A DNA stretch of 64,000 nucleotides, taken from an uncultured Bacteroidales bacterium. GTDB lineage: Bacteria > Bacteroidota > Bacteroidia > Bacteroidales > UBA932. Below, piece after piece: positions 2,664 through 63,359 of the stretch (positions within the stretch are counted from its first letter, which is position 1; each line of letters opens with the position of its first letter). The translations under genes and the position numbers were made by a program. Below the pieces are notes generated by a model. That model made no database searches. It saw nothing but the letters and a program-made list of their open reading frames with translations, and was not told the origin of the DNA. The stretch covers positions 1,477 to 65,476 of the forward strand of contig ONSC01000007.1 in NCBI GenBank assembly GCA_900320365.1, given 5' to 3'.

Positions 2664-5588
2664 ATGAAAAAAACACTGCTATTACTCTTCTCTCTCGTAC
2701 TTGCGTTGACAGGCTGCAAGTACGATGACTCGAGCCTTTGGGAGGAGATTAACGCCCAAAAAGCGAAGATAACCGCCCTGGAAGGCACAGTCTCGACTAT
2801 GAACTCAAACCTCGGGGCCTTGCAATCCCTTGTCTCATCCGTCCAGGGTCAGGTCACCGTCAACGCGGTCACCAAGAACGATGACGGATACACTATCTAC
2901 TTCTCAGACGGCAAGACCGCTAAAATTAAGGATGGATCCGACGGCGAGGATGGCAAGACACCTCAAATCGGAGCAAAGGCCGACTCTGACGGCAGTTATT
3001 ATTGGACCGTGAACGGGAGTTGGCTCCTTGACTCACAAGGTGCCAAAGTATCCACGAGCAACACCCCGAAGGTAAAGATCGAGAATGACCAGTGGATGGT
3101 CTCTTATGACAACGGCGCCAACTGGACCAAGATCGAAGGCCAGGGAGCTTCAGCTTCAATGTTCAAGGACGTGGAGACAACTGACAGCGACGCCATTTTC
3201 ACCCTTTATGACGGAACCGTCATCACAGTGCCTCTCACAGGGGCCGCCCCGAAGCTCCAGCTTGTCTTCGACGAGAGTGTTTTCGCCAAGATGCGCAATG
3301 GTGAGCTACTCAGCACAGCATACAAGATTATCGCTCCAGAAGGTGCCAAGGTAAGCATCGAGACTTTTGAAAGCACTGGTTGGACTGTCACATTCCACGA
3401 GACAAGCGACAGGGCTGGTAGGGTCTCTATCAAAGCTCCCGCCAAGGTCACTGATGCCAAGATACTCTTCCTTCTCACTGACGACAAGGTCAAGATAATC
3501 AACATCGGCCTCAACGAGTCCGCGAAACCTACCGTCAAGACCAGCTACGAGGTCGATTACACGGGTGGAGAGATTGTGATCCCGATCGCTTCCTCCACCG
3601 TTACAATCGGTGACACCGGCGAGAACTGGATGGAGGTTGTCTCCGTTGGAGACGAGGTGGTCCTCAAACTCTCTGAGAATGATTCTTACGACTGGAGGAC
3701 TGCCAGGGTCACCCTTGAGGACGGTACCGTCATCACTATCACCCAGCTCACAAAGGATGCCCTCTTCCTCACAAAGAGCGATATCCAGATTGACGGAAGA
3801 CGTCAGATAGTACCTGTGGTCGTCAACACGAACATCACCGGACTCAGCGTCACTGTGACCGAAGGCTCCGACTGGCTCTCAGCGACTCCTTCGACAAGGG
3901 CTCTCTCCCAGAAGATTTACAACTTCACCGCGAAGAGGAATACCTCCGAGGCGGAAAGGACTGCCAAGGTCGAGATCTCCGGAAAGAATCTAAAGGTGGC
4001 CTGCACCATCACTCAGAGCGTATTTGAAGGAGATCCTTCAATGGATGTGACTGAGGCCTCAGCAGCGGAGGAAGGAGAGGAGGTTGAGCTTAAGACCTCT
4101 ATCATTGTTGCCGGAACTACTGATGGATATGTGGTCTCCGACGGATCAAGCTATCTGTTCATCACTGATCCTAGCCATGCTCCACAGTGGGCAGGAGACT
4201 CTGTGAAGTTCTCAGCTACAGCCACTTCCTTTAATAGCATGCCTGCTCTCGAATCAGTTCAGGGTTATACTGTCACTAAGGAGAAGAACTCAATACTTAG
4301 CCACCTTAGCTCCGCCAAGGACATCACGTCTTCAATCAGTACTTATTCCTCGGGAGTCCCCACAGTGATTAAGGTCACCGGAGACTTCTATGTGGATAAT
4401 TCAGGCAGTTATTACTTGATCGTGAAGGGCTCTGGCAAGAGAGTCGACATCTATAAGCCAGCCTCCTATACCGCTATCAATGAAAACCTGACCAACCACA
4501 ATGTTACCATCACTGGTATTTACTACGGAGCGTCAGGTGGCGCGATCACCGTTATCGCCATGAAGAGGGACGACAACGGCGCCACTATTGTCGAGGGTGA
4601 TCAGGTCTCCGTGGCCCAGTTCCTTGCCATGGCTAACACCCAGCTTTCGCTGAAGGTCGGTCCTGGACTTGTTGTCGCCTCATCTTCAGCTGGCTTCCTT
4701 ATGGACCAGGATGGCGCGAAGATTTATGTCCGTAATGGAAAGGCCAAAGTCGGTGATAACGTGATAGTGGAAGGTAAGTATTCCACTTATCAGAACTCGC
4801 CTCAAATCAACGGCCCTACAAGTGTTACAGTCAACTCCAGTGGTAACGCTGTCACTCATCCTGATCCTAAGGATATCACCTCCAGTTTCGCTTCATATAC
4901 CTCGAACGATAGAGAGTTCGTGACCTACTCCGGTACGCTGAACATCGATGGTAATTATTACAACATTACCGTAGGAGGTTCAACTTCCGTGACCGGTAGT
5001 ATCCTGAAACCTACGGAGGATATTGCTTCCCTGAACGGTGAGACTGTCACGGTCAAGGGTTACTACCTCTACCATGCCTCACAAGGCAAGTACCTCTATA
5101 TCATCGCCACTGAGATTAACGGGATCGCCCTTGTAGGCCCCGAAGCCCAAGGTGGCGGCGGCGGTGACACTCCTGGTGGTTCAGTTTCAGGCAACACTAT
5201 CGTATTCGCCGATCTTGGCATTGAGAATGGAAAGCAATACAACGGAAGCGGTGATGACAAGACTATAATCCAATCCACCGACTTCAGGATTTGCTTCGGA
5301 AAGGGCGGCAACGATGGTAAATACTATACGACAGGTGAAGGTATCCGTACTTATGGCGGAGGTTACATCCGAGTCGAGTCTTCAACAAAGACTATCTCCA
5401 AAATTGTATTCACATTCGCCTCTGGCAGCAGTTACAAGCCGAACGCCTCAGACTGCACAGTAAGTCCAGGTTCCTTCGACTATAGTTCAACCACATGGAC
5501 GGGCTCAGCCTCGTCAGTTGTCTTGACAAGAAGTAGCGGTTCAGGACACTGGCGTCTGCAGAAGGTTGAGGTGACATTCGCGGATTAG
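2664..5588 (+). CDS. large surface lipoprotein: DUF4988-like coiled-coil N-terminus, BACON-like domains, two tandem A-B repeat modules (A halves OB-fold-like) and a distinct C-terminal domain
   Basis: Lipoprotein signal MKKTLLLLFSLVLALTGC. The coiled-coil plus GSDGEDGKTPQIG...YYWTVNG segment resembles the DUF4988-type N-terminus of Bacteroidales surface proteins. Two W..V/A...R.A.V.L/I...ITQ segments resemble BACON domains. An internal 184-aa repeat is marked by KDITSSISTYSSG and KDITSSFASYTSN. A poly-Gly linker precedes the last ~140 aa. Confidence 0.6.
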   Translation: MKKTLLLLFSLVLALTGCKYDDSSLWEEINAQKAKITALEGTVSTMNSNLGALQSLVSSVQGQVTVNAVTKNDDGYTIYFSDGKTAKIKDGSDGEDGKTPQIGAKADSDGSYYWTVNGSWLLDSQGAKVSTSNTPKVKIENDQWMVSYDNGANWTKIEGQGASASMFKDVETTDSDAIFTLYDGTVITVPLTGAAPKLQLVFDESVFAKMRNGELLSTAYKIIAPEGAKVSIETFESTGWTVTFHETSDRAGRVSIKAPAKVTDAKILFLLTDDKVKIINIGLNESAKPTVKTSYEVDYTGGEIVIPIASSTVTIGDTGENWMEVVSVGDEVVLKLSENDSYDWRTARVTLEDGTVITITQLTKDALFLTKSDIQIDGRRQIVPVVVNTNITGLSVTVTEGSDWLSATPSTRALSQKIYNFTAKRNTSEAERTAKVEISGKNLKVACTITQSVFEGDPSMDVTEASAAEEGEEVELKTSIIVAGTTDGYVVSDGSSYLFITDPSHAPQWAGDSVKFSATATSFNSMPALESVQGYTVTKEKNSILSHLSSAKDITSSISTYSSGVPTVIKVTGDFYVDNSGSYYLIVKGSGKRVDIYKPASYTAINENLTNHNVTITGIYYGASGGAITVIAMKRDDNGATIVEGDQVSVAQFLAMANTQLSLKVGPGLVVASSSAGFLMDQDGAKIYVRNGKAKVGDNVIVEGKYSTYQNSPQINGPTSVTVNSSGNAVTHPDPKDITSSFASYTSNDREFVTYSGTLNIDGNYYNITVGGSTSVTGSILKPTEDIASLNGETVTVKGYYLYHASQGKYLYIIATEINGIALVGPEAQGGGGGDTPGGSVSGNTIVFADLGIENGKQYNGSGDDKTIIQSTDFRICFGKGGNDGKYYTTGEGIRTYGGGYIRVESSTKTISKIVFTFASGSSYKPNASDCTVSPGSFDYSSTTWTGSASSVVLTRSSGSGHWRLQKVEVTFAD

Positions 5589-8168: not shown

Positions 8169-9437
8169 ATGGACAGAAATGAAATAGAGATAATGGCTCC
8201 GGCGGGAAACTTCGAGTGTCTCACCGCCGCCATCGAGGGTGGAGCTGACTCAGTCTATTTCGGTGTGGGCCGCCTTAACATGCGCTCACACTCCGCCAAC
8301 AACTTTTCCCCGGAGGATCTTCCGGAGATCACCAGGATTTGCCGCTCCGCCGGAGTCAAGACATATATGACCCTCAACATTGTGCTTTATGATAATGATC
8401 TGGAGCCGATGAGGGAGGCGCTTGACGCCGCTAGAAAAGCCGGAGTGGACGCCATCATCGCATCAGACATGGCGGCGATCCAGTACTGCAAGGAAATCGG
8501 CATTGAAGTCCATGCGTCAACTCAACTGAATGTATCCAATATAGAAGCGTTAAGATTCTGGGCAAGGTTCGCCGATGTCGTGGTTCTAGCCAGGGAACTC
8601 AGTTTGCCACAGGTCAAAGCCATCAGTGAAGCCATTGAGCGAGAGAGGATTACAGGACCTTCCGGGAATCTGGTCAGGTTAGAGATGTTCTCACACGGGG
8701 CCCTTTGCATGGCCGTGTCAGGTAAATGCTACCTCAGCCTCCATGCCTATGGGAAATCAGGCAACCGCGGTGAGTGCTACCAAATCTGCCGCCGGGGATA
8801 TGAGGTAACGGATCTTGAGACAGGATACAAACTGAACATCGACAACAAATATATCATGTCTCCTAAGGACCTATGCACCATAGAGTTCCTGGACAAGATG
8901 ATAGACTCCGGGGTAAAGGTCTTCAAAATCGAGGGCAGGGCGAGATCTGCCGAATATGTGAAGAGGACATCGGAGTGCTATCGTAAAGCCGCTGATGCGG
9001 TCTGTGACGGGACATTCTCCCCAGAACTGGGAAAACACCTGAAAGACAAGCTTTCCGAAGTCTTCAACCGAGGATTTTGGGACGGTTACTATCAAGGTGC
9101 CAAATTGGGAGAATGGAGTGAGATATACGGCAGCCATGCCCGCAGGAGGAAGACTTATGTCGGAAAAGTCACCAACTGGTACGACCGCCTCAGCGTCGCC
9201 GAGATTCTTATTGAGTCTTATTCGATAAAGATAGGAAATGAATACCTGGCAATAGGCCAGTCCACAGGGGTGTATGAAGGAAAGGTGGATGAGATAAGAG
9301 TCGACCTTAAACCAGTCATGGAGGCCCTTAAAGGCGATCTATGCTCGATACCGGTCTCCTTCCCGGAGGATTGGAAAGGTGACCGTAAGCTTCGTAGAGG
9401 GGATAGGATCTACCTCTGGGAAGTGGACGGCGAATGA
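8169..9437 (+). CDS. peptidase U32 family protein
   Basis: 422 aa. EIMAPAGNFECLTAAIEGGADSVYFG, ...MFSHGALCMAVSGKCYLS and ...FKIEGRARSAEYV are typical U32 (collagenase-like / RlhA-TrhP-UbiU family) motifs. Confidence 0.85.
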   Translation: MDRNEIEIMAPAGNFECLTAAIEGGADSVYFGVGRLNMRSHSANNFSPEDLPEITRICRSAGVKTYMTLNIVLYDNDLEPMREALDAARKAGVDAIIASDMAAIQYCKEIGIEVHASTQLNVSNIEALRFWARFADVVVLARELSLPQVKAISEAIERERITGPSGNLVRLEMFSHGALCMAVSGKCYLSLHAYGKSGNRGECYQICRRGYEVTDLETGYKLNIDNKYIMSPKDLCTIEFLDKMIDSGVKVFKIEGRARSAEYVKRTSECYRKAADAVCDGTFSPELGKHLKDKLSEVFNRGFWDGYYQGAKLGEWSEIYGSHARRRKTYVGKVTNWYDRLSVAEILIESYSIKIGNEYLAIGQSTGVYEGKVDEIRVDLKPVMEALKGDLCSIPVSFPEDWKGDRKLRRGDRIYLWEVDGE

Positions 9438-10336
9438 GAGAACCGTCTAGGTCCCTCTATTGAACGCCAATAATCAGAATCGAAATCTGAAGGGTGCTTG
9501 TAGGGGCCTTCGTGATCAATTATGAACTCTAGATAGGTTATCTTGTACCCCTGCGCCAGAAACATCTTCTCATAAAACGTCTGAACCTCGAATAATGCTG
9601 ACACGCACCCGTCGGGAGGAGGTGTCCTCCCGGCAACCGTGGCCACCCTCGGCCACGTAAGAGGGGGGACCGCCGGCGAAGCCGGTGGTGGGGTCCGCGA
9701 AGCGGACGTTGAACGGGAGGACACCTCCTCCGACGGGGCACAGCCGTAGAGGTCGGTCGTAGCGGCAAGGATGGTGAGATTGTTTTCGATGGCTACGGCC
9801 TTTGAATATTCATGAAGGAAACGACTGTCCGTCTTGAGATGGATGACCCCGCCAGGCTTGAGGAACTTACGATAACGCTCAAGGAATAAAGGACTTGTCA
9901 GCCTGGAATTCTCACTTTTCAACTGAGGGTCGGAGAAAGTCAGCCAAATTTCGGAAACCTCGCCTGGACCAAAGAAAGCCTCGATGAACTCTATCCTCGT
10001 ACGGAGGAAAGCCACATTGGGAAGATTCTCCTCCGTGGCCGTCTTGGCACCTCTCCAAAGTCTCGCGCCCTTGATGTCGACCCCGATATAATTATTCCCG
10101 GAAACCCTTTTCGAAAGGTCAATCGTGTACTCCCCTTTGCCACAGCCGAGTTCCAGGACTATCGGTTGATCTTTCTCGAACATTGTCGAGTTCCAATGAC
10201 CTTTAACAGGATGGTCATTGAGCCGCAACCCTAAAGAAGGATCACCGCTCTTATCCAACACCGCTGAAGCGTCAGGCTGGAGAAGGCAGGAAAAAGTCTC
10301 ATTCTCCGCGAATTTCCTAAGTTTATCGTGTCCCAT
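9410..10336 (-). CDS. trmB: tRNA (guanine-N7)-methyltransferase carrying a 47-codon in-frame foreign insertion
   Basis: MGHDKLRKFAENE..., IVLELGCGKGEYT, VDIKGARLW, EIWLTFSDPQLK and GGVIHLKTDS are TrmB motifs. At 308 aa it is longer than usual because of the GC-rich block at 9602-9742 (see findings). The 3' end overlaps the convergent U32 gene by 28 nt. Confidence 0.85.
   Translation of the reverse strand: MGHDKLRKFAENETFSCLLQPDASAVLDKSGDPSLGLRLNDHPVKGHWNSTMFEKDQPIVLELGCGKGEYTIDLSKRVSGNNYIGVDIKGARLWRGAKTATEENLPNVAFLRTRIEFIEAFFGPGEVSEIWLTFSDPQLKSENSRLTSPLFLERYRKFLKPGGVIHLKTDSRFLHEYSKAVAIENNLTILAATTDLYGCAPSEEVSSRSTSASRTPPPASPAVPPLTWPRVATVAGRTPPPDGCVSALFEVQTFYEKMFLAQGYKITYLEFIIDHEGPYKHPSDFDSDYWRSIEGPRRFSHSPSTSQR
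9602..9742. repeat. GC-rich palindromic multi-hairpin element (copy 1), in-frame inside trmB
   Basis: About 72% GC by my count. Terminal inverted repeats at 9605-9632 and 9714-9741. Five internal hairpins. A block of about 32 nt is shared with 63002-63032 on the opposite strand. Confidence 0.7.
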
Positions 10337-42777: not shown

Positions 42778-44568
42778 TCAATACTTTTTCAAACCGAAAC
42801 TCTTGGTCCCTTTTTTCTCCAAGCGGAACTCAACGTAAAGGGACATCTCCGAGCTGACTTTCTGCCCTCTGACCCTGCCGGGTTTCCATTGGGGAGAGGC
42901 GCTTATTATCCTCACAGCCTCATCGTCCAAAAGAGGATCCGCCCCCTTCAGGACTTTCACATTCCTGACCTTACCGTCTTCACCGATCACAAAATCCACA
43001 AGCACGCGCCCCTGGATGCCCTGGCTGATAGCTTCCTCGGGATATTTCATATAAGAATACACCCATTTCTTAAGGAACACTTTCGGGTCGTCACTCCCGA
43101 GGAAAGAAGGCTTGACGTCGCAATCGTAATATGGTACGGCATCAGACACACCTCCAGTCAATTTGACCACATCGGAAGGGTTGAATATCGGTTTCGGTCC
43201 TCCAGAGAGAGCGATCGCGTAGCTGTAGATGAACTCAAGTTCCCTCTCCATCGTCTCATAGTCTATGATTGACTGGGTGTCACGCTCTGTGTCATGAGCC
43301 GGATACCTGCCAGTCGTGAAAAAGACCGAGGGAATCTTCTTGTCATAAAACGCTATATGATCTGAAGGGTACGGCTCTTGCGCCGTGATGGTCGGTCTGA
43401 TAGGCTGCAACTCGTTGGAGAGGGCCTCTGCGATCGCATTCATGTCGGCATTTGAGGCGGTATATGCGAAGAAACCGTCAGAGCCGGTGCCGAGCATGTC
43501 CAAATTGATCATGGCGTCAATATTGGAAACATCAGAGAACGACCTGTTCAGGAAGTACCAGGAACCGGCGAATGCCTCCCTTGAGGCACCGAAAGCGACC
43601 AGCAGGACAGACCTGCGAAGCAAGGCCTTATTGGTCTTGAGCATCCGGGCGAGCTCAAGCATCATGGCCACACCTGACGCGTTCCCGTTTGCCCCGTAAT
43701 AAATCTTCTCAACCTTCACGCCATCTACAGTCATAGACCCCGTGCCTAGGTTATCCATCCTGGCACCTATGACTATATAATTATCCCTCAACGTCTTGTC
43801 ACCTCCTTGAATGAAAGCGCACACATTCCTTGAGACAAGGGTATCGCCATTCTCCTGACGTATTCCGAAAGGATCTCCTCCATCCTGTGAAATCACATCG
43901 ATCCCATAGGATTTCAGTGTCTCAGTGATATAGTCCGCCGTGAGTTTCTCGCCTTCAGAACCGGCCTTACGGCCTTCCATCATAGCGGAAGAGATGGTCG
44001 TCACATGTTCCTTGAAAGCGGATACTGTCTCGCTGTCTTTCTTTCTGTCTAAAATCCAGACGCCCTCAGGGCAAAAATCCTGCCCTTTCAACTCTTTCAT
44101 GAAAGCTTTAACCTCCTCAGGATCATCAGTCCCCCCGATACCGACGGCGGTGCGCCCCTCTGTGAAGCCGAAGAACTCCGGCTCATAGCCATAGGCCTTG
44201 ATACGTTCGGCGTATTTGACAGCGTTATCTTTGCTCGAGAATGCTCCCATAATCACATAATAACGCTTCTTTTCCGCCTTCTTCCCTGTCACCCCCGGCT
44301 TGACCGGGGATCCGGCGGGATGATCGGTCACGGCCGAGTCCATCCTCGCTTCGCCTTGCTCCGCTGCGGCTGAGTACGGCCTTTGCCCGTCGTCCCGCCG
44401 GTCAGGAGCCGATACCTCTTCTTCCTGATAGGAGCGAAGGATCTTCTCACGCTTTACCTCGATATCCTTCGAAGTCGGCCTCCCAGCCAACATACGGAAG
44501 AAATCGCACCCCGTCGCCATCATGGCGACGGACAGCAAGACAACAGCGATCTGGAGAACTTTTCTCAT
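42778..44568 (-). CDS. lipoprotein fusing SPOR domain, M28 aminopeptidase-like domain and TonB C-terminal domain
   Basis: 596 aa with lipoprotein signal ...MMATGC. SPOR-like [32 protein letters not shown]28-like ...[19 protein letters not shown]...DMLGTG...SDHIAFY. TonB_C-like [56 protein letters not shown]. Confidence 0.7.
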
Positions 44569-46361
44569 TATTCAGCCGAACCTTGAACAAAAGCTATAAT
44601 CTCGCCCTTGGCGACCTTGTCTCCCTGCTTACCGAGGACAGCCACGACACGGCCATCCACCGCGGGAACAATCTCTTCCATCCCGTAATATGTCTGGACA
44701 AAGCCCATTCCCTTGCCAACTTTGACCTCAGTCCCGGCTACAGGAGCCTTGGAATCATCGTCAACATCGACCTGCCACAAGAGTTGGCCCTTGACAGGTG
44801 CCTGAACGGGAACAGCATGGGGATAACGACGGGTGTATTCCTCCACATCAAAAGCGGGCATCTCAACCACGGGACGGGTAACCACTATCGGTGCGCCGGC
44901 CTTGGCTTTGAAATCCTCAAGCTCCTTGTTGAAGCGCTCTTTGGCGATGCCGCTCTTGTAGTCGCGGTACTGACGCTCATGCATGGCCATCTCGAAGAGT
45001 TCCTCGTCATCCTCACCATAATCCCAGCCTTCCTCGTCCATCATCTTCCTGAAATGCGGAAGCTCATCGGGATAGTTGTCCTGAGGATTGCCTGTTGAGA
45101 ACTCCAAACCCTTCTCCTTAGCTAGTTCCACGATCTCCGGAGCGAGAGGACCGGGAAGCTGTCCCATATTGCCTAGAATCATCCCCCAAGTGTCCTTGTC
45201 GATGGTGGTCCAGCGAGGTTTGTCATTGAGCATATTGAAGAGATTCATCAAAGCGGTGTTCTTGACATACTGGCTGAAAGGTGTCACGAGAGGCGGATAA
45301 CCTAAGCGTGGCCATACGTACTCAACCTCCTGGAAGAGCTTGACCATCAATGTGTCAAGGCTCATCTCAGGACGACCGTGCGACCTCTGCGCGGCATTGA
45401 TGGCTCCTTGGAAGCCCCTGAGGTCAGCCATCATCGAGCCCATCATTCCACCAGGCAGACCGCATCCCACAAGTAGTGAGCTCATCTGGGAGTTGGTGGG
45501 ATTGATCCAGTAGCCAAGGAAGTCGTCAATGAACTTCTGGGTCAAACGACGCACCTCCATATAGGCGTCCATATTCAAGTCCTTCACAAGGAAACCATCG
45601 GCCTTCATCATCTCACGGATGGTGATCACGTCCGGGTGGACCTTGCCCCAAGAAAGAGGCTCAACCGCCACATCAAGATACTCGGCGCCAGCCCTGGCGA
45701 CCTCAAGCATCGATGCGGGTGAAAACCCTGGGCCGGTGTGGCCATGGTACTGGACCACGATGTGGGGATATTTCTTCTTTATGTCCCTGACGAGTTCCCC
45801 GAGGAAGGTGGGACGGCCGATTCCGGCCATATCCTTGAGGCATATCTCATCACAACCATACTCCACGACCTTGTCGACAATCCCCATGTAGTATTCCACT
45901 GTGTGGACAGGAGAATTCGTTATCGAAAGCGCTACCTGCGAGATCATCCCTCCTTTCTTCGCTCCCTCTACCGAGCCGCGGAGATTGCGATGGTCATTGA
46001 GACCGCAGAAAGAGCGGGCGATGTCCGTGCCTTGCTTCTTCTTCACCTTGAACATCAGGTCCCTGACATCCCTCGGCACAGGATTCATCCTCAGAGCGTT
46101 AAGTCCCCTTTCAAGCATATGTGTCTGGATGCCGGCCTTATGGAAGGGTGCCGTCCACTTGCGTACCGCCACATTGGGGTTCTCCCCAAAAAGAAGGTTA
46201 ACCTGCTCGAAGGCGCCTCCATTAGTCTCAACCCGGTCGAAACAACCCATATCAACAATCGCTGGAGCGACCTCGCAAAGCTGATCCACCCTCGGGACAT
46301 ATTTGCCCGAGCTCTGCCACATGTCCCTGTACACCAGGGAGAACTTTATCTCTTTAGCCAT
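44568..46361 (-). CDS. carboxyltransferase, oxaloacetate decarboxylase alpha / pyruvate carboxylase subunit B-like, with degenerate biotinyl-like C-terminal domain
   Basis: 597 aa with a TIM-barrel HMGL-like N-terminus (...VETNGGAFEQ..., ...LKDMAGIGRP..., ...QYHGHTGPG...) and a PYC_OADA region. The C-terminal ~70 aa hybrid-barrel has TYYGMEE where (E)AMKM(E) is expected. Confidence 0.7.
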   Translation of the reverse strand: MAKEIKFSLVYRDMWQSSGKYVPRVDQLCEVAPAIVDMGCFDRVETNGGAFEQVNLLFGENPNVAVRKWTAPFHKAGIQTHMLERGLNALRMNPVPRDVRDLMFKVKKKQGTDIARSFCGLNDHRNLRGSVEGAKKGGMISQVALSITNSPVHTVEYYMGIVDKVVEYGCDEICLKDMAGIGRPTFLGELVRDIKKKYPHIVVQYHGHTGPGFSPASMLEVARAGAEYLDVAVEPLSWGKVHPDVITIREMMKADGFLVKDLNMDAYMEVRRLTQKFIDDFLGYWINPTNSQMSSLLVGCGLPGGMMGSMMADLRGFQGAINAAQRSHGRPEMSLDTLMVKLFQEVEYVWPRLGYPPLVTPFSQYVKNTALMNLFNMLNDKPRWTTIDKDTWGMILGNMGQLPGPLAPEIVELAKEKGLEFSTGNPQDNYPDELPHFRKMMDEEGWDYGEDDEELFEMAMHERQYRDYKSGIAKERFNKELEDFKAKAGAPIVVTRPVVEMPAFDVEEYTRRYPHAVPVQAPVKGQLLWQVDVDDDSKAPVAGTEVKVGKGMGFVQTYYGMEEIVPAVDGRVVAVLGKQGDKVAKGEIIAFVQGSAE

Positions 46362-56788: not shown

Positions 56789-58069
56789 CTACAGCTGGTC
56801 GGCGTGGCTGAGAAGATAATCCTCGGCCTCGATGTTCCACAGGCCGTGATGGGCCTTGCAGAGACGATCGAGCTCGGCGTAGACCGGATTGGTCTTGCCC
56901 TTCTCCTCGAACTCAGTGATCGCTGTCAAAGGCATCTCGATGTGGGTGTAGATCAACTTTTTACCACCTTTGATTTCAGGAAGACGCAAAGTGGTCTCAG
57001 GCACAACGTTCAGGCCTCCAATATGAGTAACAAGACCAGCCGGATCCATTCCCTTGCCCATGAGGTCAAGGGCCTCCTTCATGTCATCCGTATTGCCACC
57101 ACTGGTTCCAACGATATGGGTGGAGGCATAATGGACATTGTAGAAATTGAGCGGAGCCTTGAAATCAGCGCGTCCAGGGCCAGAGAAGAAATTAAGGCAG
57201 CCGTCCTGCCCGAGAATATCGTCTCCCTGCTCGATAACAGCAGGAACCGGAGCCATGACGACGACCTCATCGTAGCCGGTACCGCCGGTCAGTCCGCGAA
57301 GGTATTCAGCAGGATTTTCAACAACACCTGTATTGACATAACGGAGGTCAATCCCTCTGGAAGCGGCAAACTCCTTGGTATACAATGTCGCTGCCCTGTC
57401 CAGACGGGCCTGGTCGATGTCGGTCACGACGAACAGCGATGGCCGGCGATCCTCACGGCGCAGGACATAGTTGATCATCGCGAGACCCATCGGCCCCACA
57501 CCGGCCAGCAAGGCCATCTTGCCACCGTCCTTGATCTCCATTTTATGGACGTACGATCCGGGAGTCGTGTGATAGCAGGCATGCATGGCGCCGATCACAC
57601 AGGATAGGGGCTCGCTCAATGACGCCGGATAGAAACCCGGACCGTTATAAGAAAGAAGGCAACCTTGTTCCATCACCTCGGCGGGGATTATGATATAAGT
57701 CGCGTCACCACCGATGTACCTGTAGGAATATCCAGGTGCTGAAAGCACTCCGACCGGACCTCCCTCGTAATTGAGGGCGGGTTGGATTGAGAACTTGTCC
57801 CCAGGCTTGAACTGATCCTTCCACTTGGAGCCGACCTCAACGATCTCTCCGGCGAACTCGTGACCGATAATGGTGGGGTGCTCGGCGATGTCATTTGGAA
57901 CTCTCTTATGGTCAGTGCCTTGGTGAGAAGATTTATATGACGACATGCAGATGCTGTCGCTGACAACCTTCGCGAGGATCTCGTCATCCTTCATCGCCGG
58001 AAGCTCGAACTCATCCAGCCTCAGGTCTTCCTTGCCGTAAAGGCGTACCGCTTTAGTTTTCATATTCAT
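56789..58069 (-). CDS. zinc-dependent medium-chain dehydrogenase/reductase (long, ~426 aa, sorbose-1-phosphate-reductase-like subgroup)
   Basis: VSDSICMSSYK (Zn Cys), IIGHEFAGEIVEVG (His/Glu), and Rossmann LLAGVGPMGLAMI. It is the last gene of the E2-E3-E1 operon. Confidence 0.7.
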   Translation of the reverse strand: MNMKTKAVRLYGKEDLRLDEFELPAMKDDEILAKVVSDSICMSSYKSSHQGTDHKRVPNDIAEHPTIIGHEFAGEIVEVGSKWKDQFKPGDKFSIQPALNYEGGPVGVLSAPGYSYRYIGGDATYIIIPAEVMEQGCLLSYNGPGFYPASLSEPLSCVIGAMHACYHTTPGSYVHKMEIKDGGKMALLAGVGPMGLAMINYVLRREDRRPSLFVVTDIDQARLDRAATLYTKEFAASRGIDLRYVNTGVVENPAEYLRGLTGGTGYDEVVVMAPVPAVIEQGDDILGQDGCLNFFSGPGRADFKAPLNFYNVHYASTHIVGTSGGNTDDMKEALDLMGKGMDPAGLVTHIGGLNVVPETTLRLPEIKGGKKLIYTHIEMPLTAITEFEEKGKTNPVYAELDRLCKAHHGLWNIEAEDYLLSHADQL

Positions 58070-61973: not shown

Positions 61974-63359
61974 TCAGAACTCAATGTCCAGAGTCTCTAT
62001 CTCTGTCGCCACTTGTTTGAGGAAACGGGTGGCCTCACCGCCATCGAGAGCCCTATGGTCATAGGTCAGGGAAAGACCCAAGTAAGGCACAAAAGCGATG
62101 ACTCCGCCGCCAAGATCCTTCGGACGAGGGACAATGGTGCCGACTCCGAGAATCCCGCTCTGGGGAAGGTTGATAACGGGAGTGAACCACTCGACACCGA
62201 AACCACCGAGATTGGAGACCGTGAAGGACGCCGCCTCAGAAGACAGCAAGTCAGGATTGATACTACCCTTACGGCAATCATCAGCGACCTGCTTGAGAGC
62301 CTTGCTCAATTCCGTTATAGAGAGATTCTCGGCGTGCTTGATACAAGGGACCATAAGCCCGCGCTCAGTGTCAACCGCACATCCTAGATTGACGGTGTTG
62401 AATATCCTCATGGAATCGCCGAGGCAGTGGGAATTGACTTTAGGAAATTTTTGGAGAGCCTTGATCACCGCGAAACAGACGAAGTCGTTGATGGTGACAT
62501 TGGCGTCGATCTTTCCTTCTTCCAGAGCTTTCTTGGCTTTCTTTCGGAGTGCCTGGATCTTTCTCGCGTCAGCGCCGAGCATATGGGTAAGTTGCGCGGA
62601 GTTCTGCAGGGAATTGTACATGCTCTTGGCGATGAGCTTGCGCATATTGGACATCTTCTCCACCTGGAACTCGGAGCCTTCTCCGGCGATGTCGGTGTGG
62701 GATGGCTTCCGTGTCTTGAGGTCGCTTCCCTTCACCATGCCGGCGAGGCCTGTCCCACTCGCTGGCGCCCGCAGTCCACCCTCAGCCATCATGGCCTTGG
62801 CGAGGCCTGATCTTGGAGAAGCCGCGGCAGCTATGACATCCCGCTCAATCACCCTGCCTCCAGGGCCGGAACCCGCGATTTGATTCGGGTCCACGCCTTT
62901 CTCTTCCGCCAGACGCTTGGCACGGGGTGAGACTCCGGCATTGGAGGATGCTCCCCCAGACACCGTCTCGCTCCGCTCGACCCCACCGTTCGCTTCGCTC
63001 ACGGTCCCCCCTCTTAACGTGCCGAGGGTGGCAGTGGTGTCCTGGGGGACATCCTCCACTGCCGGAGCAGCCGCGGCGGCGGGAGCCTCACCTCCGGGAG
63101 CGAACTCCTCGAAAGACTCCCCGGGCTCGCCGATGACCATCACGTTGGTCAGGCACGGAATCTCGTCATTATCATTGAAAAAGCAGGCTAAGACGGTCCC
63201 CTCGAACTTCGATTCCTCGTCAAATGAAGCCTTGTCGGTCTCATAGCTGAAAAGGATGTCTCCGACGGCGACCTTGTCGCCCACTTTCTTCTTGAACTCA
63301 GTTACGATGCAGCTTTCTACAGATTGCCCCTGCTTGGGCATTATCACTACTTGCGCCAT
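61974..63359 (-). CDS. dihydrolipoamide acyltransferase (E2) with foreign in-frame insertion in the first linker
   Basis: 461 aa. Lipoyl domain (…FSYETDKASFD…), E3-binding domain (VSPRAKRLAEEKGVDPNQIAGSGPGGRVIERDV), and catalytic domain ending LTYDHRALDGGEATRFL. Confidence 0.9.
   Translation of the reverse strand: MAQVVIMPKQGQSVESCIVTEFKKKVGDKVAVGDILFSYETDKASFDEESKFEGTVLACFFNDNDEIPCLTNVMVIGEPGESFEEFAPGGEAPAAAAAPAVEDVPQDTTATLGTLRGGTVSEANGGVERSETVSGGASSNAGVSPRAKRLAEEKGVDPNQIAGSGPGGRVIERDVIAAAASPRSGLAKAMMAEGGLRAPASGTGLAGMVKGSDLKTRKPSHTDIAGEGSEFQVEKMSNMRKLIAKSMYNSLQNSAQLTHMLGADARKIQALRKKAKKALEEGKIDANVTINDFVCFAVIKALQKFPKVNSHCLGDSMRIFNTVNLGCAVDTERGLMVPCIKHAENLSITELSKALKQVADDCRKGSINPDLLSSEAASFTVSNLGGFGVEWFTPVINLPQSGILGVGTIVPRPKDLGGGVIAFVPYLGLSLTYDHRALDGGEATRFLKQVATEIETLDIEF
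62935..63066. repeat. GC-rich palindromic element (copy 2), in-frame in the E2 inter-domain linker
   Basis: About 30-nt terminal inverted repeats (62935-62964 and 63036-63065). The central block 63002-63032 matches the reverse complement of 9642-9672. It contains the TTCGCTTCGCTCA core at 62989-63001. Confidence 0.7.

What the first reader, a model, noticed from the sequence alone, without database searches (positions are those of the whole stretch)
9602..9742. 141-nt GC-rich multi-hairpin palindromic element sitting in-frame inside trmB
TrmB reads normally up to ...LAATTDLYG and resumes at SALFEVQTFYEKMFLAQGY. In the Bacteroides TrmB sequences I remember, the DLY and TYYEQ segments are separated by only about 12 residues. 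Here 47 extra codons intervene (CAPSEEVSSRSTSASRTPPPASPAVPPLTWPRVATVAGRTPPPDGCV), with no methyltransferase character.

At the DNA level the block has these properties:
- It is about 72% GC (my count, 102/141) in a roughly 50% GC gene.
- It is bounded by terminal inverted repeats: gcacccgtcgggaggaggtgtcctcccg at 9605-9632 and cgggaggacacctcctccgacggggcac at 9714-9741, with one mismatch and one indel.
- It contains five local hairpins: gggagga-ggtg-tcctccc (9614-9631), gtggcc-accctc-ggccac (9639-9656), ccgccggc-gaa-gccggtgg (9670-9688), gtccgc-gaa-gcggac (9693-9707) and gggagga-cacc-tcctcc (9715-9731).
- Two loops are the GCGAAGC-type GAA mini-hairpin, known to be exceptionally stable in DNA.
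- Its length is an exact multiple of 3 and it introduces no stop codon.

In-frame colonisation of ORFs by a small palindromic element is what is described for Rickettsia palindromic elements. I am not aware of an equivalent described for Bacteroidales. A related copy lies in the E2 gene in this same window.
Basis: partly seen in the sequence, partly recalled or inferred. Interest (0 to 1): 0.7.

Follow-up and report, generated by a model that had tools for sequence, protein, structure and literature searches.

The report
In-frame palindromic repeat inside trmB
The GC-rich block in trmB is one copy of an apparently undescribed small folded DNA repeat that sits in reading frame inside dozens of essential genes of gut Bacteroidales from ruminants and other herbivores, much as the palindromic elements of Rickettsia do.

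Summary

- **The block.** Window 9605-9741 is 72% GC and folds into a four-way junction (z about -8 to -9). It adds about 47 disordered residues to a TrmB loop.
- **Second copy.** A second copy lies in the E2 gene (62932-63068), in the opposite orientation.
- **The family.** One pattern scan found more than 116 stretches in about 60 species genomes, almost all uncultured Bacteroidales from ruminants and other herbivores.
- **Placement.** Of 109 defined copies, 72 lie in frame inside 47 unrelated host protein families, including PolA, UvrA, UvrD, FtsK, AtpG, TruB and KsgA. The rest sit within a few bases of stop codons.
- **Architecture.** Each copy has a near-invariant core of about 75-90 nt with three hairpins. 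A pseudoknot in the core is supported by four compensatory variants. The core is closed by a copy-specific stem of 14-41 bp.
- **What is absent.** I found no strongly conserved terminal inverted repeats (only a weak arm consensus), no target-site duplication, no transposase neighbour, no Rfam match and no phage copy.
- **Orthologous sites** show flipped cores, frame shifts, nested copies and microhomology deletions.

Best reading: a non-autonomous, structure-defined selfish repeat that is translated through, like the Rickettsia elements but with a different architecture. How it moves is unknown. A host-level function of the core is not excluded.

The parts
9410..10336 (-). Host gene trmB, tRNA (guanine46-N7) methyltransferase, 308 aa.
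   Evidence: ORF. Homologs carry Pfam PF02390. PDB TrmB chains match residues 40-198.
9605..9741 (+). Whole element copy, with the G-rich strand on +. It is read by trmB on the opposite strand as about 47 extra codons (9602-9742).
9605..9637 (+). 5' arm of the closing stem P1. It includes the perfect 18-nt repeat at 9615-9632 and the conserved inner CAAC(C).
   Evidence: Conservation gradient along the arm.
9638..9657 (+). Hairpin P2 (CGTGGCC / GGCCACG). Its 6-nt loop ACCCTC lies at 9645-9650.
9658..9668 (+). Junction J2/3, TAAGAGGGGGG. GAGGG at 9661-9665 pairs with loop bases CCCTC at 9646-9650 to form the pseudoknot. The TAA closes one reading frame.
9669..9689 (+). Hairpin P3 (ACCGCCGGC-GAA-GCCGGTGGT), the domain whose length varies across the family.
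9690..9692 (+). Junction J3/4, GGG. It is part of the conserved GGTGGGG.
9693..9707 (+). Hairpin P4 (GTCCGC-GAA-GCGGAC).
9708..9741 (+). 3' arm of the closing stem P1. It includes the perfect repeat at 9714-9731.
61974..63359 (-). Host gene of the second copy: the E2 dihydrolipoamide acyltransferase, 461 aa.
62932..63068 (-). Second copy, with the G-rich strand on -. It is read in sense as APAVEDVPQDTTATLGTLRGGTVSEANGGVERSETVSGGASSNAGV in the linker between the lipoyl and E3-binding domains. The covariance model's 91-position region (core plus inner closing stem) matches 62955-63045.

Best explanation
The block is one copy of a dispersed, non-autonomous repeat defined by its fold rather than by conserved ends. 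It lives in uncultured Bacteroidales from the rumen and gut of ruminants and other herbivores (Candidatus Cryptobacteroides and relatives).

**Anatomy.** A copy is about 95-170 nt long and has two parts.
- A near-invariant G-rich core of about 75-90 nt. On either strand the core folds into three hairpins, P2, P3 and P4. A 5-bp pseudoknot joins the P2 loop to the junction that follows it.
- A closing stem P1 of 14-41 bp. Only its inner AACC/GGTT is strongly conserved. The outer part is specific to each copy but stays complementary.

**How it persists (inferred).**
- The element has spread through these genomes as selfish DNA.
- Copies survive where they do no harm. That means protein loops and linkers, and the few bases after stop codons.
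- ORF copies survive because the sequence is stop-free in five of six frames and the surviving copies keep the frame. The ribosome then reads through and adds about 35-50 disordered residues.
- After insertion a copy changes in place by four routes: inversion of the core between its arms, frame-shifting indels, microhomology deletions that leave one arm, and nested or tandem insertions.

**Shown here:** family membership, the fold and its covariation, in-frame placement in real housekeeping genes, absence of the element from some orthologs, and the rearrangements.

**Inferred:** mobility itself and its mechanism, which is probably not a classical cut-and-paste transposase. I suspect a folded single-stranded intermediate or template switching, with the arms kept paired by correction within the palindrome. 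Translation of the insert is also inferred.
For: **Dispersed family.**
- The covariance model R1 finds 108 copies in 713 kb of loci. Only about four of them lack the exact pattern.
- A sister family with a different pseudoknot sequence occupies 32 further distinct loci in metagenomes.

**Fold.**
- 82% of cells pair in the four helices, against 30-38% when the partners are slid by one to three columns.
- 24 of 32 pairs show changes on both sides.
- The pseudoknot occurs as CCCUC/GAGGG, CCCGU/ACGGG, CCCAU/AUGGG and CCCGC/GCGGG.
- Folding z-scores run from -5.4 to -9.3.

**In-frame colonisation.**
- 72 of 109 copies lie in long ORFs of 47 host protein families.
- Pfam domains of PolA, UvrA, UvrD, AtpG, TruB, KsgA, a MiaB-like protein and FtsK lie on both sides of, or span, the insert.
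- The frame that contains the conserved TAA never occurs in an ORF-embedded copy; by my definition a copy counts as ORF-embedded only if its frame is open, so this is a consistency check, not independent evidence.
- The AlphaFold model of the window's TrmB gives pLDDT below 30 and no secondary structure for residues 199-249.

**Not an ancestral loop.** Orthologs without the element exist for TrmB (P0013, P0105) and for E2 (P0202).

**Change in place.**
- The same site carries the core in both orientations and in two frames.
- P0020 and P0040 are deletion derivatives that keep one arm.
- L110 and L080 carry remnants of two copies.

**Family dynamics.** Median core identity is 0.88 for orthologs, 0.82 for paralogs in the same genome and 0.76 for unrelated pairs. 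That fits both vertical persistence and lineage-specific activity.
Against: - No movement was observed directly. I did not find a presence/absence difference between near-identical strains.
- There is no fixed-length target-site duplication, no sequence-conserved terminal repeat and no recurrent transposase, reverse transcriptase or HUH gene among the neighbours.
- The core is far better conserved than a decaying selfish insert should be. It is 93-98% identical between trmB orthologs whose coding sequence is 77-79% identical and whose third codon positions are about 51-53% identical. This points to selection on the nucleotide sequence or to repeated turnover.
- Translation of the insert is inferred only from open frames.
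Confidence: 0.65

Rival explanations
1. The core is a functional structured nucleic acid kept by the host, or needed by the element at each locus. It could be a protein-binding or catalytic RNA or single-stranded DNA fold, or a bidirectional terminator or mRNA roadblock. Copies inside ORFs would be tolerated or exploited, not merely parasitic.
For: - Core conservation far exceeds that of synonymous sites at orthologous loci, whatever the frame or orientation.
- The most conserved bases are the unpaired junctions and a covarying pseudoknot, which is the signature of a folded functional molecule.
- Stems covary while their sequence drifts.
- Intergenic copies sit within about 10 nt of stop codons and often fill the whole spacer between convergent genes.
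- G.T mismatches outnumber A.C mismatches 54 to 30 on the G-rich strand.
Against: - Orientation relative to the host gene is 36 same and 36 opposite, and it flips between orthologs. A sense-strand RNA function within the mRNA cannot be general.
- There is no Rfam family.
- Some orthologs do without the element.
- Deletion derivatives persist.
- Paralogs in the same genome resemble each other more than unrelated copies do, as expected from amplification or conversion.
Confidence: 0.2
2. The element is an intragenic invertible segment. The two arms would be the inverted repeats of a recombinase-driven or RecA-driven switch. Flipping the core would swap one inserted peptide for another without breaking the gene.
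For: - The same site carries the core in either orientation in related genomes, for trmB, the E2 gene, uvrD, polA and one further host family that was not Pfam-scanned; atpG also carries both orientations but in a different frame pairing.
- The two commonest readings are sense frame 2 (29 copies) and antisense frame 0 (26 copies), and these alternate at five of those sites.
- Intragenic invertons are described in gut Bacteroidales (PMC10028968, found).
Against: - Flipping in silico keeps the ORF open in 51 of 72 copies, against about 56% expected from open frames alone. The enrichment is weak.
- Three independent assemblies of the window's trmB show only one orientation.
- The arm sequences differ at every locus, so no single site-specific invertase could recognise them.
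- Both peptides are disordered filler.
Confidence: 0.08
3. It is a classical miniature inverted-repeat transposable element, cut and pasted by the transposase of a related insertion sequence elsewhere in the genome.
For: - The copies are small, non-coding, numerous and end in inverted repeats.
- The arms share a weak consensus: a G-rich block, T, a C-rich block, then GRAAMC.
Against: - The terminal repeats are copy-specific beyond the inner 4-12 bp.
- There is no target-site duplication of 2-9 bp above control levels.
- No transposase recurs in the 8-kb neighbourhoods.
Confidence: 0.05
4. The insert is taken out before the protein is made or matures. It could be a self-splicing or self-cleaving RNA, a translational bypass element or a mini-intein.
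For: - The fold is very stable and pseudoknotted.
- The inserts lie in essential genes.
Against: - An element that is removed would not need to be stop-free and frame-preserving, yet every ORF copy is.
- Both orientations occur.
- The insert is too small and lacks intein or intron motifs.
- No ribozyme family matches.
Confidence: 0.02

Closest known systems
Rickettsia palindromic elements (RPE-1 and related families)
   Same: Both are repeats of about 100-150 bp able to form hairpins. Both are inserted in frame in many unrelated housekeeping genes as well as in non-coding DNA. Both are read through to add a peptide in a tolerant part of the protein. Both come in several families per lineage, and neither has a known mobilising enzyme. 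The RPE facts come from the review PMC10969869, which cites Ogata et al. 2000 and 2002.
   Different: - The host is a different phylum: free-living gut Bacteroidales rather than obligate intracellular Rickettsiales.
- The element is 70% GC in a 51% GC genome.
- The peptide is not conserved, because two strands and several frames are used.
- What is conserved is a pseudoknotted four-way-junction core with a copy-specific closing stem.
- No sequence comparison with RPE consensus sequences was possible here.
Bacterial miniature inverted-repeat elements (Correia, ERIC, BOX, RUP and similar)
   Same: Both are small, non-autonomous, structured and multi-copy. Both are sometimes intragenic and produce in-frame fusions (PMC10969869).
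   Different: This family has no sequence-conserved terminal repeats, no target-site duplication and no parent insertion sequence in view.
REP/BIME elements and the palindrome-associated derivatives of IS200/IS605 (Y1 HUH transposases acting on single-stranded hairpins)
   Same: In both, recognition would depend on a folded single strand rather than on terminal repeats, and there is no target-site duplication. The GCGAAGC-type mini-hairpins here are very stable as DNA. This comparison rests on my own knowledge of these families.
   Different: - REPs are 20-40 nt long, extragenic and tagged with GTAG or CGTC (PMC3733652, listed).
- No Y1 transposase gene was seen near any copy.
- The core here is a multi-helix junction with a pseudoknot.
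Intragenic invertons of gut Bacteroidales
   Same: Both have inverted repeats inside a gene that flank a segment found in either orientation, with the ORF kept open (PMC10028968).
   Different: - Here the flipped segment is a dispersed repeat with the same core at more than 100 loci.
- The inverted repeats differ at each locus.
- Both orientations were seen only between genomes, not within a population.
[quoted passage not shown]
   Same: Both are long inverted repeats embedded in functional protein-coding genes and translated (PMC6649704).
   Different: In Nematomorpha the arms encode conserved protein regions and there is no shared repeat core. Here the arms and the core are extra, disordered sequence.

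Membership tests
Rickettsia palindromic elements | Dispersed repeat of about 100-150 bp that can form a stable hairpin-type structure. | tested here: met
Rickettsia palindromic elements | Inserted in frame in many unrelated protein-coding genes, in positions compatible with function. | tested here: met
   72 of 109 copies lie in 47 host protein families. Pfam domains lie on both sides of, or span, the insert. The insert is disordered in the structure model.
Rickettsia palindromic elements | Sequence homology to an RPE consensus, with a conserved encoded peptide. | not testable with these tools
   No RPE sequences were on hand. The peptide is not conserved here, because both strands and five frames are used. 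From my own knowledge, RPEs are AT-rich and confined to Rickettsiales, so homology is very unlikely.
Miniature inverted-repeat transposable element | Terminal inverted repeats with a sequence shared by all copies. | tested here: not met
   The arms are copy-specific. Information content falls from 1.2-1.4 bits at the inner three positions to about 0.1-0.4 bits beyond position -13.
Miniature inverted-repeat transposable element | Target-site duplication of fixed length. | tested here: not met
   No direct repeat of 2-9 bp flanking the arms rises above the shifted control or chance, apart from a 2-bp count at one offset inside the arms that I read as a palindrome artefact, in 81 copies.
Miniature inverted-repeat transposable element | A parent insertion sequence with matching ends in the same genomes. 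| tested here: inconclusive
   None occurs within the 8-kb neighbourhoods. Whole genomes were not searched.
REP/BIME | Extragenic palindromes of 20-40 nt with a GTAG or CGTC tag, associated with a RAYT gene. | tested here: not met
   Copies are 95-170 nt long, two-thirds are intragenic and none carries such a tag. No RAYT-like neighbour was found.
Intragenic inverton | Inverted repeats flanking an intragenic segment that exists in both orientations. | tested here: met
   Both orientations occur at the same site in orthologs of trmB, the E2 gene, uvrD, polA, atpG and one further host family that was not Pfam-scanned.
Intragenic inverton | Both orientations coexist within one population, driven by an invertase. 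| not testable with these tools
   No read-level data were available. Three assemblies of the window's allele agree in orientation.
Any curated RNA family (Rfam 15), including ribozymes and tRNA-like RNAs | A score at or above the family's gathering threshold. | tested here: not met
   There was no hit on the trmB copy, on 15 loci with typical copies, or in a permissive scan of the best-scoring copy. ARAGORN finds nothing in the window.

The most novel reading that the evidence does not exclude
The conserved pseudoknotted four-way-junction core is an active nucleic-acid machine rather than passive selfish DNA. It could be a catalytic fold or one that recruits a protein. In that case it would drive a previously unknown way of copying, inverting or maintaining itself inside genes without a transposase. 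Alternatively, the host may have recruited it genome-wide. Either way this would be a new class of structured genetic element, not another miniature transposon.
Probability: 0.25. Interest if true: 0.92.

Novelty: new variant of a known kind. Interest (0 to 1): 0.8.

Why it matters
- **Generality.** In-frame colonisation of essential genes by selfish palindromes has been treated as a peculiarity of Rickettsia. Finding it in abundant free-living herbivore-gut Bacteroidales, in about 60 species and 47 host protein families, suggests it is a more general route of protein-loop evolution.
- **Genome analysis.** These inserts are a real source of length heterogeneity, mis-annotation and assembly or binning chimeras in rumen metagenome-assembled genomes.
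- **Mechanism.** The family combines an invariant pseudoknotted core, copy-specific closing stems, no terminal-repeat or duplication signature and frequent flipping in place. It offers more than 100 natural replicates for asking how such repeats move and why they are kept.
- **Recombination.** Near-identical 75-nt cores inside diverged orthologs may also serve as crossover points between species.

Tried and rejected
- **Rfam**, at gathering and at permissive thresholds: nothing.
- **ARAGORN:** nothing.
- **Phage or viral carriage:** no copy in the viral contig collection.
- **Associated enzyme.** I clustered all ORFs of 120 aa or more in the 116 genome loci. Only ordinary housekeeping neighbours recur (IF-2, DnaX, FabG, LptB, QueA and similar).
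- **Target-site duplication:** none.
- **Arms copied from the local target sequence.**
  - For: the 3' arm in the E2 gene weakly resembles the element-free ortholog, 63% identity over 30 nt by my own count of the alignment. Outer-arm GC correlates with flank GC, r = 0.31.
  - Against: in TrmB and KsgA both arms are extra relative to element-free homologs. The arms also share a weak consensus of their own.
  - I left this as an open sub-question.
- **Flipping as a designed switch.** Inversion in silico preserves the ORF only modestly more often than chance.
- **Concerted evolution alone as the cause of core conservation.** Orthologs are closer than same-genome paralogs overall, but the per-copy comparison splits 20 to 15, so both forces seem to act.
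- **AlphaFold model of TrmB.** The model is of moderate quality (mean pLDDT 58). I used it only to show that the insert is unstructured, and ran no fold search.
- **Other GC-rich islands in the window.**
  - 62693-62831 is a native E2 linker conserved in element-free orthologs.
  - 57387-57466 is unique.
  - 44313-44405 is a different repeat family.
Full report
**1. The observation**

trmB is the ORF 9410..10336 on the - strand, 308 aa. Between DLYG and SALFEVQTFYE it reads 47 codons with no methyltransferase character. At the DNA level, 9602-9742 holds 102/141 G+C (72%), against 50.9% for the window.

An 18-nt perfect inverted repeat lies at 9615-9632 and 9714-9731. None of 100 shuffles of the window gave two matches.

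I folded 9605-9741 on both strands, as DNA and as RNA. Every fold gives the same structure:
- a closing stem of about 27-32 bp;
- three internal hairpins at 9638-9657, 9669-9689 and 9693-9707.

The z-scores are -8.4 to -9.3, and none of 200 shuffles folds as well.

It lies at 62932-63068, in the opposite orientation to the trmB copy, although both genes are on the - strand. The covariance model scores it at 95 bits and the trmB copy at 75.9 bits. Nothing else in the window is significant.

**2. It is an insertion, not an ancestral loop**

Close TrmB homologs range from 266 to 332 aa, and all of the length variation falls in this one loop.
- P0013 (266 aa, 91% identical elsewhere) reads DLYESTGLSAALYEVQ.
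- More distant Cryptobacteroides-type orthologs carry an unrelated 19-residue loop.
- The alignment to solved B. subtilis TrmB stops at DLY/DLH, with 31 residues of the chain left against 110 of the query.
- An AlphaFold model gives pLDDT below 30 and no secondary structure for residues 199-249.

DNA of the orthologs shows the same element at the same site in three other states:
- the same orientation but another frame (L006, reading VRFADPTTGKAGGSPSYVAEGGHG);
- the opposite orientation (L004 and L080, reading PPATVATLGHVRGGT...GGVRGADVER);
- two copies or remnants together (L110, L080).

The common 275-aa forms are deletion derivatives. P0020 lost one arm plus the core between two CACGG repeats. 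P0040 keeps one arm and part of P2.

In the E2 gene, P0125 has the core inverted between essentially the same arms. P0202 has no element, only an ordinary Ala/Pro linker of similar length.

**3. A large family**

I scanned one genome per species for CCACCCTCGGNNNNNNAAGAGGGGG.
- All but two chance hits are in Bacteroidales-type assemblies (one labelled Firmicutes), most from cattle, goat, sheep, buffalo, yak, deer and reindeer, with one from horse and a few of unstated source.
- By my count of the listing these are about 60 species genomes, several of them with 3-7 hits each.
- The nearest genome to the window is RGIG2644, from goat omasum. Its trmB core is identical and its flanks are 96% identical.
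- The window's exact TrmB protein occurs on three rumen metagenome contigs.
- No copy exists in the viral contig collection.

**4. Anatomy**

Every copy has a conserved interior flanked by an inverted repeat that is different at each locus, 14-41 bp long with a median of 25.

I aligned 59 distinct copies (A2) and wrote a structure by hand with P1 to P4.
- 82% of cells pair, against 30-38% when the 3' partners are slid by one to three columns.
- 24 of 32 pairs show changes on both sides.
- The covariation score is 0.378, against 0.129 in shuffles.

The core is nearly invariant. Of 108 model hits in 713 kb, only about four lack the exact 19-base pattern.

*The pseudoknot.* One of those four variants, L054 1328-1423, has the P2 loop GCCCGT and the junction GAACGGGGGG. 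This is a double compensatory change for pairing between the loop (CCCUC) and the junction (GAGGG).

I then scanned metagenomes for copies whose loop differs at that position. The scan returned a sister family at 32 distinct loci, all with CCCGU/ACGGG. Three further loci have CCCAU/AUGGG and one has CCCGC/GCGGG. The only near-canonical variants carry a single mismatch.

Formally, the two variable pseudoknot pairs read U-A 30, G-C 6, A-U 2, and C-G 34, U-A 7, over 41 distinct sequences.

The core is therefore a four-way junction with an H-type pseudoknot, G-rich junctions (TAAGAGGGGGGA and TGGGG) and a P3 of variable length. P3 and P4 often carry GC-GAA-GC mini-hairpins flanked by tandem G.A pairs.

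*The closing stem.* Conservation falls with distance from the core. The inner AACC/GGTT carries 0.8-1.4 bits per position. Beyond it lies a weak consensus of a C-rich block, T and a G-rich block. This explains why each arm of the trmB copy also folds on itself.

**5. Where copies sit**

Of 109 well-defined copies, 72 lie inside long open frames and 37 do not. The 72 fall into 47 host protein families.

Pfam confirms real proteins with domains on both sides of, or spanning, the insert:
- DNA polymerase I, between the exonuclease domains;
- UvrA, UvrD, ATP synthase gamma, TruB, KsgA, a MiaB-like enzyme and FtsK.

Orientation relative to the host gene is 36 same and 36 opposite. The commonest readings are sense frame 2 (29 copies) and antisense frame 0 (26 copies). 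The sense frame that contains the conserved TAA never occurs.

Non-coding copies lie within about 10 nt of a stop codon, in either orientation. They often fill the whole spacer between convergent genes.

**6. What it lacks**

- No Rfam family matches and no tRNA-like call is made.
- There is no fixed target-site duplication.
- There is no sequence-conserved terminal repeat.
- No transposase, reverse transcriptase or HUH gene recurs among the neighbours.
- Full-text searches found no description in Bacteroidales.

**7. Evolutionary behaviour**

Between trmB orthologs whose coding sequence is 77-79% identical and whose third codon positions are about 51-53% identical, the 75-nt core is 93-98% identical. 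This holds even when orientation or frame differs. The arms are only 0.5-0.7 identical. Over 53 orthologous pairs the medians are 0.85 for the core, 0.57 for the arms and 0.66 for the flanks.

Core identity is highest for orthologs (0.88), intermediate for paralogs in the same genome (0.82) and lowest for unrelated pairs (0.76). In the per-copy comparison the best ortholog beats the best paralog 20 times and loses 15 times.

So copies persist vertically, and lineages also have their own subfamily flavour. That flavour could come from amplification or from gene conversion.

Interior mismatches in the arms favour G.T over A.C on the G-rich strand, 54 to 30 (p = 0.012), equally in all contexts.

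**8. Interpretation**

The best-supported reading is a non-autonomous selfish repeat, defined by its fold, that is read through by the ribosome where it lands in tolerant loops and linkers. Functionally it is the counterpart of the Rickettsia palindromic elements (review PMC10969869). It fails the defining tests for a classical miniature transposon and for REP elements.

How it moves is not shown. Four features make me favour a folded single-strand or template-switch route:
- the absence of a duplication and of conserved ends;
- the stability of the fold as DNA;
- the independence from orientation;
- the paired but drifting arms.

In that route the arms would be kept complementary by correction within the palindrome. 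This is inference.

The strongest rival is that the core has a function of its own, for the host or for the element. The evidence for it is a core conserved well above synonymous sites and a covarying pseudoknot. The main evidence against a sense-RNA role is orientation independence. I give this rival 0.2.

I give an inversion-switch reading 0.08. Both orientations occur at orthologous sites, and such invertons are known in Bacteroidales (PMC10028968). However, ORF preservation on flipping is only weakly enriched and the arms differ at each locus.

**9. Verdict**

The finding is real, non-random and correctly interpreted in outline. As far as these libraries show, it is undescribed. The new points are:
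- the scale (more than 100 loci, about 60 species, 47 host protein families);
- the pseudoknotted core and the copy-specific closing stem;
- the flipping and decay series at orthologous sites;
- the existence of at least one sister family, and of a second, unrelated family in the same window.

Noticed in passing
window 44313-44405, inside ORF 42781..44571 (-): A second, unrelated GC-rich palindromic repeat lies in frame in another gene. Stretches of 31-76 nt match six other loci (L078, L056, L106, L100, L079, L030) at 73-90% identity. The consensus is ..GCCCGGCCGxGTCCATyCTCGCT..CGCTGCGGCTGAGTACGGCCTAAGCCCGG.., and the window copy has its own closing stem.
   Followed up: partly
L054 1328-1423; metagenome loci L129-L190: A sister family has the P2 loop GCCCGT, the junctions TGAACGGGGGG and TGGGA, and the same architecture, at 32 distinct loci. 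It co-occurs with the main family in genome RUG12619.
   Followed up: partly
L098 1-330 (- strand): A tandem array of at least three units of the main family, with a period of about 99 nt, lies at a contig end. One unit carries a degenerate loop, ACCATC.
   Followed up: no
L093 about 3760-3800; L115 about 1100-1150: A palindrome of about 26 nt (CCCCGGAAAAGCATGCTTTTCTGGGG) is nested in the P2 loop. A 7-nt stretch, CCACCCT, is duplicated on either side of it. This may be a different small mobile element that targets this one.
   Followed up: no
L004 10626-10790 (trmB) and L073 7563-7689 (intergenic): A subfamily has P3 expanded to about 60 nt (..GAAAGCGAGGAAAGAGGAGAGACAACTTGTTGTC..). It is shared by two unrelated loci.
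   Followed up: no
L006 10001-10918 compared with window 9410-10336: This trmB looks recombinant. Its first 540 nt are 97% identical to the window. The 3' part and the downstream genes differ, and the change falls at or near the element. The conserved cores may act as crossover points between lineages.
   Followed up: partly
L152 compared with L160 and L181: One contig joins the 5' arm of one locus to the 3' half of another, within the core. This is either ectopic recombination or an assembly chimera at the repeat. It is a caution for binning rumen metagenome-assembled genomes.
   Followed up: no
window 9410-9437: trmB (- strand) and the convergent peptidase U32 gene (8169..9437, + strand) overlap by 28 nt at their 3' ends.
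   Followed up: no
window 62693-62831: A second GC-rich stretch in the E2 gene encodes SGLAKAMMAEGGLRAPASGTGLAGMVKGSD. It is conserved in all orthologs, including element-free ones, so it is native linker and not a repeat copy.
   Followed up: yes
L069 (assembly labelled Firmicutes bacterium TM09-10) and L086 (labelled Prevotellaceae hRUG909): Typical copies occur in assemblies labelled outside the main clade. The cause could be mis-binning, mislabelling or horizontal spread. I did not examine it.
   Followed up: no
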